23,189 nucleotides of DNA from Octopus sinensis (lineage: Eukaryota), in contig NW_021823563.1 of assembly GCF_006345805.1 (NCBI RefSeq), positions 1-23,189 on the forward strand, written 5' to 3'. Below are positions 5,536-22,287 of this stretch, one piece after another. Positions within the stretch are counted from its first letter, which is position 1, and each line of letters begins with the position of its first letter. Position numbers and translations under genes: made by a program. A model generated the notes under the pieces. That model was not told the origin of the DNA and did no database searches. It saw nothing but the letters and a program-made list of their open reading frames with translations.

Positions 5536-6361
5536 GTGATGTTCACACTATTTGGTAGATGTTTCGCAAGTTAAATAAAGAATATTAACCAAAAAATGGT
5601 TTTAAACCATTGTTGAATTATCTGTACTGTTCATGTAAATTTGGTCAAAAATGAAGAATTTAAGGGCAAAAAACAGGTTTTCTAATCAGTTTTCCGCAAT
5701 TGTTGGTCATACGTGGATGAATTCTGTGCATTTCGGAGTCTCCTAACGTTATCCTTGGGGTGAGTAAATAGTGTGTAAAGTTTGAACGCAATGCACCGAA
5801 GCAGTGAGAAGTGGAAAAAGTGGATAAAACCGACTTTTTCACAGTTTCCAAGCATAGAGATTGTACACAGTGTTATTGGGTCGAGGGTCTTTTTGAAGTG
5901 ACTTAAAAGTTTGGAATGTGTTTGTAAGGTCAAACCAAAAACAGGAAGAGAGGAAAAAACAAGAGTGAGAAAATATAAAAGCGGGGAGATAATAAAGAGA
6001 TGAAGAGAGGGAGAGTGTACTGGCTAGTGGTCAGTCAGGATAAATTGATAGAAGGAAAGCTGAGGTGACGGTGAGAGAGAGAGATAAAGATATGAGTTTG
6101 TAAAGAGATGAGAGGGTAAAGAGTAAAGGAGTGCGAGGTATGTAGAGATAGAGCCTAAGTGAAGGGCAGAGAGAAGGGGTAGGGGTAGTAATATTGTAGC
6201 AAAATGTTAATAGATTCGCACACACACATAAACACACACACACACACACACACACATATAATATATATAAAAGTCAACCAAAACAGTCCGACGAACGGGA
6301 ACGTGAAACTCTGAGTAACAGCTTTTTTTTTTTATATCTTTACACCTTCATTAATAATGTG

Positions 6362-6403
<42 letters not shown>

Positions 6404-6404
<1 letters not shown>

Positions 6405-6591
6405 AGATCGTTAGCCACTGCAAACATTTTTCTTCTCTCCTTGTGTCTCTCCTTGTTTTCTGTGTCCCTTTCTGTAGAAGAGCATAGGCTCGAAACGTAA
6501 AAGACTTTTTCTATTCCTGAGCGTTATACTAACGCATCTGTTTGTTTTGTACACCACCTGTCTTCGTCTTTTGTTGTTTTTCGTAAACTCT

Positions 6592-6595
<4 letters not shown>
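6404..6595 (+). mobile_element. ~190-bp (TA)n-flanked non-autonomous element carrying a variant hammerhead fold (copy A)
   Basis: Near-identical reverse-complement copies at 17371-17552, 18584-18772, 19907-20089 and 20783-20960; the 3' end ...AAACTCTCCC runs into (TA)n. Confidence 0.85.
6468..6503 (+). ncRNA. Minimal type I hammerhead-like motif with non-canonical core CUGUAGA
   Basis: CTTT-CTGTAGA-A-GAGC(ATAG)GCTC-GAAA-CG-TA-AAAG: stem I CTTT/AAAG, stem II GAGC/GCTC, palindromic ACGT in place of stem III. Confidence 0.6.
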
Positions 6596-8094: not shown

Positions 8095-8520
8095 ATGAGA
8101 AAATGAAGATTCTTTTATCCTTCATTTTAAATTGATCCTTCATCTTTAAATGAAGGAACAATATTTGATCCTTAATTTCCAAAAGAAAAATCAACATTCT
8201 CTGCGCCTTATTCTCAATCGAATCCTTGATCTTAAAATGAAGATTAACCTTAATTGCTATTTCGTGCACTTGATCTTTTACCTTAAAATGACTTTCATAT
8301 TTCCATCTTTAATTTCAAAATGAAGAATCAACGTTTTTGTCTATTCATCTTAAATTGATTCTTCGTCTGAAAATAAAGGCTCATCCTTAATGGACACTTC
8401 ATGTCAACTTGATCCTCATTTCTAAATAACAGATCAAACTAAACTGACCCGTTCTATGAACTTGACCATTCATCTCTAAATGAACAACATTATTTGAATC
8501 TTGCGCTCAACTTCATGTTT
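8095..8520. repeat. Degenerate array of the palindromic monomer TTGATCCTTCA-N-TGAAGGATCAA
   Basis: Irregular diverged copies, e.g. TTGATCCTTCATCTTTAAATGAAGGAACAA at 8132-8161. Confidence 0.7.
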
Positions 8521-9330
8521 GATTTCCAACTAAAGGATAATTTCATTTCTCATCTGAATTTGATCTTTCATTTCAAAATTAAAGATAAACATTTTTCGAT
8601 CTTTGACCTCAACGTCATCTTTCATCTCAAACTGAAGGATCAATATAATTGATCTCTCATCTGAACTCGATCCTTCATTCCAAAATTAAAGGTGAACATT
8701 TTTCAGTCCTTGAGCTCACCTTTGCCTTTCATTTCAAACTGAAGGATCAATATAATTGATCTCTCGTCTCAACTTGATCCTTCATTTCAAAATTAAAGGT
8801 GAACATTTTTCAGTCCTTGAGCTCAACTTTGCCTTTCATTTCAAACTGAAGGATGAATATAATTGATCTCTCATCTCAACTTGATCCTTCATTTCAAAAT
8901 TAATGGTGAACATTTTTCAGTCCTTGAGCTCAACTTTGCTTTTCATTTCAAACTGAAGGATCAATATAATTGATTTCTCATCTCAACTTGATCCTTCATT
9001 TCAAAATTAAAGATGAACATTTTTCAGTCCTTGAGCTCAACATTGCCTTTCATTTCAAACTGAAGGATCAATATAATTCATTTCTCATCTCAACTTGATC
9101 CTTCATTTCAAAATTAAAGGTGAACATTTTTCAGTCCTTGAGCTCAACATTGCCTTTCATTTCAAACTGAAGGATCAATATAATTGATCTCTCATCTCAA
9201 CTTGATCCTTCATTTCAAAATTAAAGGTGAACATTTTTCAGTCCTTGAGCTCATCATTGCCTTTCATTTCAAAGTGAAGAATCAACATATTCGATCTCTC
9301 ACCCGAAACTTGATCCTTCATTTCAAAACA
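8521..9330. repeat. 107-bp tandem repeat, ~7.5 copies, each a dimer of 54+53-bp subunits
   Basis: ACTGAAGGAT starts at 8631, 8738, 8845, 8952, 9059 and 9166, with a variant at 9273: exact 107-bp period. Confidence 0.95.
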
Positions 9331-10957: not shown

Positions 10958-11352
10958 CGGCTGTGAAATTTACTTCGCAATTTCGAGGTTACAGGTTCTG
11001 TACGACAACGTGGTATTTAAGGCGGAGAGCTGGCAGAAACGTTAGCACGTCGGGCGAAATGCTTAGCGGTATTTCGTCTGCTGTTACGTTGTGAGTTCAA
11101 ATTCCGCCGAGGTCGACTTTACCTTTCATCCTTTCGGGGTCGATAAATTAAGTACCAGTTACGCACTGGGGTCGATGTAATCGACTTAATCCGTTTATCT
11201 GTCCTTGCTTGTCCCCTCTATGTTTGGCACCTTGTGGGTAATAAAGAAATAGGTATTTAAGGGAAATCTCATTTAGAGAAGTTTAAGATCACAACTGCGG
11301 TACGACCCAAGTTATAGGAACAAACCAAGTTGCGAAGTAGGAAATCTGCAGT
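10958..11352. mobile_element. Putative decayed MITE (imperfect terminal inverted repeats) split by a SINE
   Basis: TACTTCGCAATTT (10971-10983) vs AAGTTGCGAAGTA (11327-11339), 12/13 complementary, with weaker complementarity on either side. Confidence 0.5.
11021..11251 (+). mobile_element. tRNA-derived SINE (octopus OK-like), full length, with target-site duplication
   Basis: A box GAGCTGGCAGAA, B box GAGTTCAAATTCC, central CCTTTCATCCTTTCGGGGTCGATAAATTAAGTACCAG. Direct repeat GGTATTTAAGG at 11012-11022 and 11252-11262. Confidence 0.9.
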
Positions 11353-16057: not shown

Positions 16058-16284
16058 CAACTGTAAGACTATATGTGACCGCGTGTGTATCGTTTGCGAT
16101 TTTTTTCCCTTCATCTTCTCTTCCTTGGATCTTTCTTTTTCTTATGTTTCTGACGAAGAGGTCCACTCGAAACGTTAAATCATCCTTCTTTCTTTCCTTT
16201 CCTGAGCGTCCAGTAACACTATATTTGTTCCACGTCCTCGCGTTGTTGTGTTTTCTCTTTGTGTTTTCATGTTTGGATTAAGTT
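16058..16284 (+). mobile_element. Short HHR-carrying element ending in (TA)n, 5'-truncated within its first ribozyme
   Basis: 16061-16105 matches 17609-17652, 16190-16284 matches 20663-20755, and it contains the HHR at 16146-16180. Confidence 0.8.
16146..16180 (+). ncRNA. Minimal type I hammerhead ribozyme (dimer-type)
   Basis: GTTT-CTGACGA-A-GAG(GTCCA)CTC-GAAA-CG-TT-AAAT. Stem III is reduced to the palindrome ACGT; predicted GUU cleavage after 16176. Confidence 0.7.
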
Positions 16285-16479
16285 TATATATATATATACA
16301 TACATACTGACACAAACACACACATATAAATGTAATATACGTGCATACATTTATGTTTGCCTATGAAATCTTTCGCTTATACGTTGTCTCTATATTTAAC
16401 AGCAATTTCGATTAGGAAATTTCCAAAATTCCCAAAGACGAAGACAAAGAGATTACCTAGATTTTTCAGACATATGAAT

Positions 16480-17315: not shown

Positions 17316-17369
<54 letters not shown>

Positions 17370-17370
17370 A

Positions 17371-17552
17371 AGGGAAAGTTTGCGAAAATAAACAAAAGAC
17401 GAAGGCAGGTGGTGTACAAAACAAACAGATGTATTAGTATAGCGCTCAGGAATAGAAAAAGTTTTTACGTTTCGAGCCTACGCTATTCTACAGAAAGATA
17501 CACAGAAAAAAAACAAGGAGAGAAAAAAATGTGCGTAGTAGCTAACGATCTA
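17371..17552 (-). mobile_element. Variant-HHR element, copy B
   Basis: Reverse complement of 6404-6595; motif at 17462-17497 with one stem II mismatch. Confidence 0.85.
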
Positions 17553-17569
17553 TTTAACCATCTCGCACC

Positions 17570-17617
17570 GTCTCTGATGAAGGGATATCCATAATATCCC
17601 AGAAACAGCTGTAAGGC
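17570..17617 (+). ncRNA. Type I hammerhead ribozyme
   Basis: GTCT-CTGATGA-A-GGGATAT(CCATA)ATATCCC-A-GAAA-CAGCTG-TA-AGGC. 7-bp stem II, palindromic ACAGCTGT, predicted GUA cleavage after 17613. Confidence 0.85.
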
Positions 17618-17667
17618 TATATGTGACCGCATGTGTATCGTTTGCGATTTTTCTCCACTTGTAGGGT

Positions 17668-17801
17668 GTTTAATCGACCCCAAAGGGAATAAAACGCGCA
17701 ATACATGTCAGTGGGATTTGAACTCAGAAGATATGGAGCCAGAAGAAAGTCTGCTAAGTATTTTTCCTGACGTGCAAATGATTCTGCCAGCTCGGCGACT
17801 T
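17668..17801 (-). mobile_element. Diverged 5' half of an OK-like SINE
   Basis: Minus strand: CGAGCTGGCAGAATC...GAGTTCAAATCCC...CTTTGGGGTCGAT, colinear with 11021-11145. Confidence 0.8.
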
Positions 17802-18209
17802 TAACTACAACATTTGCAGCTTTTGAAATATATTCCTTGAATTTTTTCTTCTAAATAATTCATTACTTCAATGGTATCAGTCACTGGTCTGCGAAAGTGA
17901 GGGAGGACTGCCCTCTCGGCATTTAGGTCTATTGTGAAAGTCCCAAAGCATGATTCAGTCTCGAAATGATTTTATCGGACTCTGATTAGTGAATCACTAG
18001 ATACACTTTATGATTTTACTGTACATTTACGTAACATACAGAAATGCATGTATTGTATAACTGGAAGAAGCCCGTCATATATATATATATATATATATAA
18101 TTATATATATAATATATTAATATATATATATTTAATATATATTTTTGTAATTTTTATTATATTTTTTAATTTTTATTTTTTAATTTTTTATTCTTTTATT
18201 TATTCTTTT

Positions 18210-18475
18210 ATCTACTCTACCACCGATTCCTTTGACCACTCCCCTAATAATGACAGTTTTGCGCCATGCCTACCCCCAAAAAAGTCCACCACCACCACCC
18301 ATTTAAACCTGCCTAAATGTATAAATGCCAAAACAACTCTTGTCTACTAGCTTCTGATGATTTTTTGAATGAAACAGTTCTAGTCCTGTAGAAGCTCCTT
18401 CTATAAAATAAATTAATTTACTCTGCTATGTATTGAGTACATTATTTACTGTGGTTAACCCCGACTCAACCCGGG

Positions 18476-18480
<5 letters not shown>
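18210..18480 (+). mobile_element. Penelope-type terminal-repeat-like segment
   Basis: TATAAAT (18320-18326), HHR (18349-18396), AATAAA (18407-18412), ending in (TA)n; duplicated at ~19390-19660. Confidence 0.6.
18349..18396 (+). ncRNA. Type I hammerhead ribozyme, damaged copy
   Basis: AGCTT-CTGATGA-TTTTTTGAAT-GAAA-CAG(TTCTAGTC)CTG-TA-GAAGCT; short deletions in stems I and II relative to 19528-19578. Confidence 0.6.
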
Positions 18481-18510
<30 letters not shown>

Positions 18511-18583
18511 TTTGCAGGAGTATGACTGGTGTTGAAACAATTAATGAATCGCTCAAATGTGCATGTGATATATATATACATAT

Positions 18584-18772
18584 AGGAGAGTTTTAGAAAA
18601 AAACAAAGAGAAGAAGGTGGTGTAACAAAAACAAACAGATGTATTAGTATAACGCTCAGGAATAGAAAAAAGTCTTTACGTTTCGAGCCGACGCTCTTCT
18701 ACAGAAAGGAACACAGAAAAAACCAGGCGAGAAACAAGGAGAGAAAAAAATGTGCGTAGTAGCTAACGATCT
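18584..18772 (-). mobile_element. Variant-HHR element, copy C
   Basis: Reverse complement of 6404-6595; motif at 18674-18708. Confidence 0.85.
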
Positions 18773-18790
18773 ATTTAACCATCTCGCACC

Positions 18791-18838
18791 GTCTCTGATG
18801 AAGGGATATCCATAATATCCCAGAAACAGCTGTAAGGC
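18791..18838 (+). ncRNA. Type I hammerhead ribozyme, identical to 17570-17617
   Basis: Same sequence; predicted cleavage after 18834. Confidence 0.85.
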
Positions 18839-18886
18839 TATATGTGACCGCATGTGTATCGTTTGCGATTTCTCCACTTGTAGGGT

Positions 18887-19022
18887 GTTTAATCGACCCC
18901 AAAGGGAATAAAACGCGCAATACATGTCAGTGGGATTTGAACTCAGAAGATATGGAGCCAGAAGAAAGTCTGCTTAAGTATTTTTCCTGACGTGCAATGA
19001 TTCTGTGCCAGCTTGGCGACTT
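18887..19022 (-). mobile_element. Diverged 5' half of an OK-like SINE (duplicate of 17668-17801)
   Basis: Part of the tandem duplication. Confidence 0.8.
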
Positions 19023-19527
19023 TAACTACAACATTTGCAGTTTTTAAATATATTCCTTGAATTTTTTCTTCTAAATACTTCATTACTTCAATGGTGTCAG
19101 TCACTGGTCTGCGAAAGTGAGGGAGGACTGCCCTCTCGGCATTTAGGTCTATTGTGAAAGTCCCAAAGCATGATTCAGTCTCGAAATGATTTTATCGGAC
19201 TCTGATTAGTGAATCACTAGATACACTTTATGATTTTACTGTACATTTACGTAACATACAGAAATGCATGTATGTATAACTGGAAGAAGCCCGTCATATA
19301 TATATATATATTTATATATTTTTTTAATTTTTATTTATATTTTTTAATTTTTATTTTTTTATTTTTTAATTCTTTTATTTATTCTTTTATCTACTCTACC
19401 ACCGATTCCTTTGACCACTCCCCTAATAATGACAGTTTTGCGCCATGCCTACCCCCAAAAAAGTCCACCACCACCACCCATTTAAACGTGCCTAAATGCA
19501 TAAATGCCAAAACAACTCTTGTCTACT

Positions 19528-19578
19528 AGCTTCCTGATGATTTCTTTTGAATGAAACAGTTCTAGTCCTGTAGAAGCT
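19528..19578 (+). ncRNA. Type I hammerhead ribozyme
   Basis: AGCTTC-CTGATGA-T-TTC(TTTT)GAA-T-GAAA-CAG(TTCTAGTC)CTG-TA-GAAGCT. Perfect 6-bp stem I, intramolecular stem III, predicted GUA cleavage after 19572. Confidence 0.85.
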
Positions 19579-19657
19579 CCTTCTAAAAATAATTAATTTA
19601 CTCTGCTATGTATTGAGTACATTATTTACTGTGGTTAACCCCGACTCAACCCGGACC

Positions 19658-19701
<44 letters not shown>

Positions 19702-19906: not shown

Positions 19907-20089
19907 AGGGAGAGTTTTACGAAAAAAACAAAAGACGAAGACAGGTGGTGTTACAAACAAACAGATGTATAGTATAACGCTCAGGAATAGAAAAAAGTCT
20001 TTACGTTTCGAGCCGACGCTCTTCTACAGAAAGGGACACAGAAAAAACCAGGCGAGAAACAAGGAGAGACAAAATGTGTGTAGTGGCTA
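19907..20089 (-). mobile_element. Variant-HHR element, copy D
   Basis: Reverse complement of 6404-6595; motif at 19999-20033. Confidence 0.85.
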
Positions 20090-20782: not shown

Positions 20783-20960
20783 AGGGAGAGTTTACGAAAA
20801 AAACAACAAAAGACGAAAACAGGTGGTGTACAAAACAAACAGATGTATTAGTATAACGCTCAGGAATAGAAAGTCTTTTACGTTTCGAGCCTACGCTCTT
20901 CTACAGAAAGGGACACAGAAAACAAAGAGACAAAAAATGTATGTAGTGGCTAACGATCTA
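20783..20960 (-). mobile_element. Variant-HHR element, copy E
   Basis: Reverse complement of 6404-6595; motif at 20875-20910. Confidence 0.85.
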
Positions 20961-20996
20961 TTATGGCGTCGTGCGTGTGTGTGTATGCATGTATAT

Positions 20997-22045: not shown

Positions 22046-22055
22046 AAGTAATGAA

Positions 22056-22287
22056 GGCGGCGAGCTGGCAGAGACGTTAGCACGCCGGGCGAAATACGTA
22101 CCCGTATTTCGTCTGCCGTTACGTTCTAAGTTCAAATTCCGCCGAGGTCGACTTTGCCTTTCATCCTTTCGGGGTTCGATAATTAAGTATCAGTTACGCA
22201 CTGGGGTCGATCTAATCGTCTTAATCCGTTTGTGTGTCCTTGTTTGTCCCCTCTGTATTTAGCCCCTTGTGGGTAGTACAGAAATAT
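22056..22287 (+). mobile_element. tRNA-derived SINE (OK-like), full length
   Basis: Colinear and highly similar to 11021-11251. Confidence 0.9.

What the first reader, a model, noticed from the sequence alone, without database searches (positions are those of the whole stretch)
6404..6595. Amplified ~190-bp element whose hammerhead core is fixed as CUGUAGA instead of CUGANGA
Seen: all five copies (6468+, 17462-, 18674-, 19999-, 20875-) read CTTT-CTGTAGA-A-(G/T)AGC-loop-GCTC-GAAA-CGTA-AA, with U at the normally invariant A6 position. Stem II loops vary (ATAG, GTAG, GTCG) while the odd core does not. The element is homologous to the canonical CUGACGA motif at 16146 (same layout, same downstream TTCCTGAGCG). 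Three copies belong to one local duplication, so there are about three independent insertions. Inference: either a functional natural core variant or a lineage that kept spreading after losing catalysis.
Basis: partly seen in the sequence, partly recalled or inferred. Interest (0 to 1): 0.75.

Follow-up and report, generated by a model that had tools for sequence, protein, structure and literature searches.

The report
Penelope hammerhead with fixed U6 core
These 190-base repeats are cut-short tail ends of a very abundant Penelope-type jumping gene whose small hammerhead RNA motif has U in place of a normally fixed A, and the rest of the motif is conserved in a way that suggests it likely still works as a slowed self-cutting RNA, although cutting is untested.

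Summary
The five copies are real and read CTGTAGA. They are 5'-truncated 3' ends (pseudo-LTRs) of a Neptune-like Penelope retroelement: long copies run upstream into RT and GIY-YIG frames. Genome-wide, 15,387 of 16,064 exact matches have U at core position 6, but position 7 takes all four bases, so the fixed core is CUGU-N-GA, not CUGUAGA (24 of the first 100). In 67 copies chosen by an anchor outside the motif, only N7 and H17 vary among subfamilies; 0 of 34 other hammerhead columns vary against 23 of 72 flank columns. The motif therefore stayed under selection after A6 became U, and the lineage was active until recently. Two other families here carry U4C in many copies. No pile-up of 5' ends at the cut site was seen, in this family or its sister. 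Best reading: an attenuated, dimer-dependent ribozyme (0.5); main rival: a kept structure without catalysis (0.35). I found no natural A6U variant in print, but two key papers were unreadable. This scan noted the same variant before, in this genome and others. New variant of a known kind.

The parts
6404..6595 (+). 5'-truncated 3' end (pseudo-LTR) of a Neptune-like Penelope element, subfamily with A7/A17, between (TA)n runs
6468..6503 (+). minimal type I hammerhead motif: stem I 6468-6471/6500-6503, core C3-A9 6472-6478 with U6 at 6475 and N7 at 6476, extra A 6479, stem II 6480-6483/6488-6491, GAA 6492-6494, palindromic helix III strand ACGU 6495-6498, H17 6499; predicted cut after 6499
   Evidence: sequence; layout matches the published PLE consensus
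17370..17553 (-). second copy (core C3 at 17493); G10.1 changed to U, so this copy is decayed
18584..18774 (-). third copy (core C3 at 18704); likely chimera of its two neighbours inside a 1.2-kb tandem duplication
19907..20089 (-). fourth copy (core C3 at 20029)
20783..20962 (-). fifth copy (core C3 at 20906)
16070..16287 (+). end of the sister family with canonical A6 core (C3 at 16150); same layout, 3-nt loop II, G-C instead of C-G at stem I pair 4

Best explanation
The repeat is the truncated 3' pseudo-LTR of a Neptune-like Penelope retroelement that inserts at (TA)n, and it carries a minimal type I hammerhead whose core A6 changed to U once in the master lineage; the motif likely still acts as a slow, dimer-dependent self-cleaving RNA. 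Shown: parent element, fixation of U6, continued amplification through at least seven subfamilies, conservation of every other core and stem position with change only at N7 and H17. Inferred: U6 weakens the uridine turn and, in a monomer, is predicted to pair with the palindromic ACGU strand, closing an inactive rod; two motifs in a tandem transcript would swap these strands to form helix III and cut occasionally after H17. Most template RNA would stay uncut, which fits copies that span an intact motif.
For: Parent: RVT_1 hit 32.9 bits (cut-off 29.6) and weak GIY-YIG hit 0.85-1.7 kb upstream of the motif in L071; tandem pLTR-5'UTR-ORF layout. Fixation: 15,387 of 16,064; under 1% A6 in contigs of two other runs, organisms B and D. 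Constraint: 0 of 34 vs 23 of 72 columns polymorphic at 10%, Fisher p 3.5e-5, and p 0.002 at a 15% threshold; on a tree of 174 copies H17 switches A/U three times and never to G on an internal branch; subfamilies differ by up to 23% in flanks but by at most 2 hammerhead positions. Youngest subfamily median divergence 0.0% over about 104 columns. The core positions changed in this genome (4 and 6) are those with known active natural variants: A6C with kobs under 0.1 per min, and U4C weak in vitro but sufficient in vivo (PMC3088659 passages); U4C has 7,052 exact matches in the sister family and recurs in a third family. Tandem arrays of 3-4 motifs at 440-510 bp spacing exist. Predicted pairing of U4/G5/U6 with A15.1-C-G: 0.56-0.98 in two U6 copies, 0.00-0.07 in a natural A6 copy.
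Against: No cleavage assay and no RNA end data. In a type III hammerhead, all single mutants of the CUGA turn had low activity (PMC9901934 passage; the A6U value itself was not seen). No footprint of cutting: 70 of 92 anchor-selected fragments span the motif, and 1 of 92 starts at the site with 2 more within 3 nt; 23 of 24 copies that continue into the ORF contain the intact motif; the A6/U4C sister is the same (64 of 71 span, 0 at the site), so this test does not discriminate. Stems are invariant within the family, so there is no compensatory change after U6 arose. Stem I is weak (4-5 bp; predicted 0.13-0.15 in the window copy) and G1.4 reads T in 5-9% of depth in two runs. The only raw-read run laid just 5 reads from 2 starts, all with A6, too few to weigh. 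The rod that U6 creates explains much of the same conservation without catalysis.
Confidence: 0.5

Rival explanations
1. The motif no longer cleaves but is kept as a structure: a rod hairpin or palindrome-mediated dimer that the element's RT/endonuclease protein binds, or that is needed for packaging or priming. U6 was tolerated or favoured because it extends the rod.
For: U6 creates three in-register pairs between stems I and II, four in the youngest U7 subfamilies. Loop II is also invariant, which catalysis alone does not require. Template RNAs are mostly uncut. Naiad PLEs proliferate without canonical hammerheads, and HHR function in EN+ PLEs is called unclear (PMC8557442 passages). PLE min-HHRs are weak even with a canonical core, and non-cleavage roles were not excluded (PMC4209133).
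Against: C3 and U16.1 are unpaired in the rod yet unchanged, and H17 flips between A and U but not to G, which would stabilise the rod and block cleavage; both points rest on few events. The sister U4C change does not improve its hairpin.
Confidence: 0.35
2. The ribozyme died with A6U and the element kept spreading; the motif is a neutral relic that has not yet decayed.
For: Two different damaging core changes reached thousands of copies in sister lineages. No genomic footprint of cutting.
Against: Flanks changed at about a third of columns among subfamilies while 34 constrained columns did not, and the two that did are the two the hammerhead consensus leaves free.
Confidence: 0.1
3. The block is conserved at DNA level as part of the pLTR promoter, not as RNA.
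For: PLE pLTRs hold promoters (PMC6765202 passage); many short copies begin 65-85 bp upstream of the core.
Against: The variable positions and the stem I C-G/G-C swap between the U6 and sister families follow an RNA fold.
Confidence: 0.05

Closest known systems
Minimal type I hammerheads (min-HHR) in pLTRs of metazoan Penelope-like elements (Cervera and De la Pena 2014, PMC4209133; main text parts 1-2 of 4 and supplement file 2 part 2 of 3 read)
   Same: Type I layout, 4-5 bp helix I, extra nucleotide after A9, G10.1-C11.1, palindromic C-G at 15.2/16.2, location in the pLTR after RT-GIY-YIG, mostly single truncated copies.
   Different: All rows of the alignment part I read have A6 (CUGANGA or UUGANAA); here position 6 is U in 96% of copies. 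Their descriptor required the canonical core.
Natural hammerhead core variants A6C (phage Bcep176) and U4C (viroid) (Perreault et al. 2011, PMC3088659; passages read)
   Same: Substitution in the CUGA turn with the rest of the core intact; low but detectable activity reported.
   Different: Those are single loci; this is A6U, fixed in over 15,000 copies of a mobile element across several subfamilies. A6U is not in the passages seen; the figures were not visible.
Neptune clade of EN+ Penelope-like elements (features from Craig et al. 2021, PMC8557442; passages read)
   Same: RT, CX2-5CxxC linker, C-terminal GIY-YIG, pLTR partial tandems, (TA)n target bias.
   Different: Clade placement by tree was not tested; Nematis shares the linker.
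Non-LTR retrozymes (PMC7229834 passages; bioRxiv 10.64898/2026.07.22.740005 part 1 of 5)
   Same: Short hammerhead-bearing repeats related to PLE pLTRs.
   Different: Retrozymes are unit-length tandem repeats; these are variably 5'-truncated ends of a coding element with a fixed 3' end, and tandem arrays are a minority with variable junctions.

Membership tests
EN+ Penelope-like element | PLE-type reverse transcriptase upstream in the same orientation | tested here: met
   RVT_1 E 6.7e-8 above cut-off; DKG and YIDD motifs in L071 frames
EN+ Penelope-like element | C-terminal GIY-YIG endonuclease with CCHH motif | tested here: met
   Pfam GIY-YIG E 4e-4, 21.1 bits, just under the 22.6 cut-off; IYCISCxxC..YIGQT..R..EH and two later His visible in the frames
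EN+ Penelope-like element | pseudo-LTRs from partial tandem arrangement | tested here: met
   24 of 40 loci show 3'UTR-hammerhead-5'UTR running on over 1 kb toward the ORF
Neptune clade | CX2-5CxxC linker between RT and EN; microsatellite targeting | tested here: met
   CSRPRCRTC in L072-L074; (TA)n at the 3' end of most copies
Neptune clade | RT phylogeny inside Neptune | not tested
Hammerhead ribozyme (canonical core) | C3 U4 G5 A6 N7 G8 A9, G12 A13 A14 A15.1, U16.1 H17 | tested here: not met
   all positions met except A6, which is U in 15,387 of 16,064; no Rfam hammerhead hit in the window at E up to 1, also none for the canonical copy
Hammerhead ribozyme (canonical core) | helices I and II can form; covariation | tested here: inconclusive
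   stem II predicted 0.8-1.0, stem I 0.13-0.96 by copy; stems invariant within the family; one compensatory swap against the sister family
Hammerhead ribozyme (canonical core) | self-cleavage after H17 | not testable with these tools
   no RNA raw reads offered; genomic 5'-end test uninformative
PLE min-HHR | extra nucleotide after A9, G10.1-C11.1, palindromic 15.2-16.2 | tested here: met
   columns against the consensus
Non-LTR retrozyme | non-coding unit-length tandem repeats | tested here: not met
   copies are truncated ends of a coding element with variable 5' ends

The most novel reading that the evidence does not exclude
A6U is a selected brake: Penelope-like elements repeatedly tune their hammerheads down at the uridine turn (A6U once, U4C twice in this genome), with U6 also locking the monomer in an inactive rod that opens only on dimerisation, so a large class of working CUGUNGA/CCGANGA ribozymes in animal genomes is invisible to standard searches.
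Probability: 0.3. Interest if true: 0.7.

Novelty: new variant of a known kind. Interest (0 to 1): 0.45.

Why it matters
What the hammerhead does for Penelope-like elements is open. This genome offers a natural series in related, recently active elements: canonical A6, U4C and A6U. If A6U cuts, the accepted core consensus is too strict for PLE ribozymes and descriptor searches miss tens of thousands of motifs. If it does not, the motif is being kept for a non-catalytic job in retrotransposition. Either result comes from a simple in vitro assay.

Tried and rejected
(1) An apparent second U6 family with a different stem II (181 matches in all) was rejected: the same family is A6 in thousands of copies, so its U6 copies are post-insertion mutants; it is not independent covariation support. 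(2) Pile-up of 5' ends at the cut site, prompted by L074 starting 2 nt past it: not found, and not found in the sister control; truncations follow TA microhomology. (3) Rfam scan: only microsatellite-driven miRNA and snoRNA hits. (5) Tree-based count on 174 copies includes copies found by core patterns, so I rest on the anchor-selected set (25 of 92 dropped as truncated or too diverged over the motif). (6) Literature searches for A6U, CUGUNGA, CUGUUGA/CUGUAGA/CUGUCGA, core variant, and hammerhead with octopus and Penelope gave nothing relevant (listings only, plus passages of PMC6962438 and PMC11014351). Lunse et al. 2017, Arkhipova et al. 2017 and Ambros and Flores 1998 were not held, and supplement file 1 of PMC4209133 could not be searched; any of them may already list A6U. 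(7) Look-up of earlier scan notes by sequence found nothing.

Full report
Observation. A motif scan and self-BLAST of the window give five copies with core CTGTAGA, C3 at 6472(+), 17493(-), 18704(-), 20029(-) and 20906(-), 86-88% identical to the first over about 200 bp, and a canonical relative at 16150. Each copy ends at a TA run. Individual copies are decayed: 17493 has lost G10.1, and 18704 and 20029 lack one A next to H17. The 18704 copy shares one flank with 17493 and the other, plus private changes, with 20029, so I count four likely insertions and one chimera. Rfam finds no hammerhead here, not even the canonical one.

Genome-wide core. The window is a whole small contig of a 2.72-Gb genome; I did not establish the organism. 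A pattern leaving positions 6, 7 and loop II free has 16,064 exact matches, control 0. Only 677 have a base other than U at position 6; of the first 100 of those I count 66 C, 28 A and 6 G, the spectrum of mutation after insertion. Position 7 among the first 100 matches is U 50, A 24, C 17, G 9. Patterns that leave either half of the core free show subfamily-level change only at position 7 and at position 17, A or U (first 100 listed of 13,321 and 14,560). Contigs from runs of organisms B and D agree: A at position 6 in 0.7% and 0.45% of depth, N7 A-to-T in 31% and 23%, H17 A-to-T in 17% and 19%. The fixed core is CUGU-N-GA.

Parent element. Several copies share more than 1 kb upstream. Longer stretches show frames with DKG and YIDD RT motifs, a CSRPRCRTC linker and a GIY-YIG domain with the CCHH pattern; Pfam gives RVT_1 above cut-off and GIY-YIG just below. 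In L074 the same 3' segment precedes a 5' UTR and the ORF; of 40 loci found with that UTR, 24 continue over 1 kb toward the ORF, and two loci hold arrays of 3-4 motifs at 440-510 bp spacing. These are the features given for Neptune-type elements in PMC8557442; no tree was built. The 190-bp unit is the short end of a 5'-truncation series with a fixed 3' end at the element's own ATATAT, which likely anneals to nicked (TA)n (inference; internal initiation is shown for another PLE in PMC11167929, part 1 read).

Relation to known motifs. The layout matches the published metazoan PLE consensus point for point except A6. The sister family at 16150 has the same stem II arms, a 3-nt loop and G-C for C-G at stem I pair 4; one sister copy has a GIY-YIG fragment upstream (L184). 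Since the other families here and the published rows have A6, U6 is derived, and I found only one U6 lineage in this genome.

Is the motif still constrained? I selected copies by a 19-nt anchor downstream of the motif (17,835 matches), fetched the first 90 places, obtained 92 anchors and kept the 67 that cover the motif. Of 36 hammerhead columns only N7 and H17 have a second allele at 10% or more; of 72 flank columns, anchor excluded, 23 do (p 3.5e-5; 0.002 at 15%). Columns are not independent and some flank columns lie in T runs, so the p values are indicative. A flank-only tree of 174 copies, some found by core patterns, gives the same picture: H17 switches three times between A and U and never to G. 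Seven subfamilies differ by up to 23% in flanks and at most two hammerhead positions; median divergence from their majority rows runs from 0.0% to 8.5%, the window's being about 3%. The lineage thus amplified repeatedly with U6 while keeping everything else.

Other core variants. In the sister family 36 of 64 anchor-selected copies have U4C, 7,052 exact matches genome-wide. A third, unrelated family has both U4 and C4 subfamilies, with a C4 copy at window 6284-6321. Positions 4 and 6 are where natural, weakly active variants are reported. This fits tolerated attenuation, but it also shows that these motifs need not be fast.

Footprint of cutting. None. Of 92 fragments 70 span the motif and one begins at the predicted site; 23 of 24 ORF-linked copies contain it intact; the sister control has 64 of 71 spanning and none at the site. 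Uncut tandem templates and religated circles both predict this, so it does not decide the matter. RNA data could not show ends.

Mechanism. Folding predicts that U6 lets U4-G5-U6 pair with the palindromic A-C-G, in register with stem I, giving an inactive monomer rod; a natural A6 copy of the same family does not form it. I therefore favour a slowed ribozyme that cuts only when two motifs exchange their palindromic strands (0.5), over a structure kept for protein binding or dimerisation without catalysis (0.35), neutral relic (0.1) or DNA promoter block (0.05). Mutational data on another hammerhead show low activity for all CUGA-turn single mutants, which keeps the first figure modest.

Novelty. 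PLE hammerheads are known; a natural A6U core was not found in the searches listed under Tried and rejected, with two relevant papers unreadable. Earlier unreviewed notes of this scan report the same variant in this genome and in others; I reached my reading before seeing them and could not check the other genomes. Verdict: new variant of a known kind, interest 0.45.

Noticed in passing
window 6284-6321 (+): Hammerhead of a third repeat family with U4C core, short stem II and a self-complementary helix III; the family has 4,280 exact matches with both U4 and C4 subfamilies, often as close inverted pairs.
   Followed up: partly
window 17570-17612 and 18791-18833 (+): Canonical-core hammerhead of a fourth family with a 7-bp stem II, an extra base before GAAA and palindromic ACAGCUGU helix III; about 20 relatives among fetched loci.
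   Followed up: partly
sister family, e.g. L345, L352; window 16150 is an A6/U4 member: A large subfamily has fixed U4C: 7,052 exact matches.
   Followed up: partly
window 6516-6523 and 16201-16208: A downstream YGAGC block conserved in both families is complementary to the 3' arm of stem II plus G12 and could form an inhibitory helix; its one variable base keeps a G-C or G-U pair. Not found in the minimum-energy folds.
   Followed up: no
window 17359-19690: 1.2-kb tandem duplication at 91% identity, apparently from crossover between two copies of the element; could be an assembly artefact.
   Followed up: partly
window 8304-9328: 107-bp tandem repeat, 7.3 well-matched copies plus older ones.
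   Followed up: no
window 11013-11251 and 22048-22286: Another dispersed 240-bp repeat at 89% identity, with a diverged inverted copy near 17670-17814.
   Followed up: no
L294/L298/L299 and L297/L302: Head-to-tail arrays of hammerhead plus part of the 5' UTR (periods about 510 and 440 bp), retrozyme-like arrays arising from the coding element.
   Followed up: partly
short copies: Many short copies of both the U6 and sister families begin 65-90 bp upstream of the core, which may mark a transcription start or an RT stop; not quantified.
   Followed up: no
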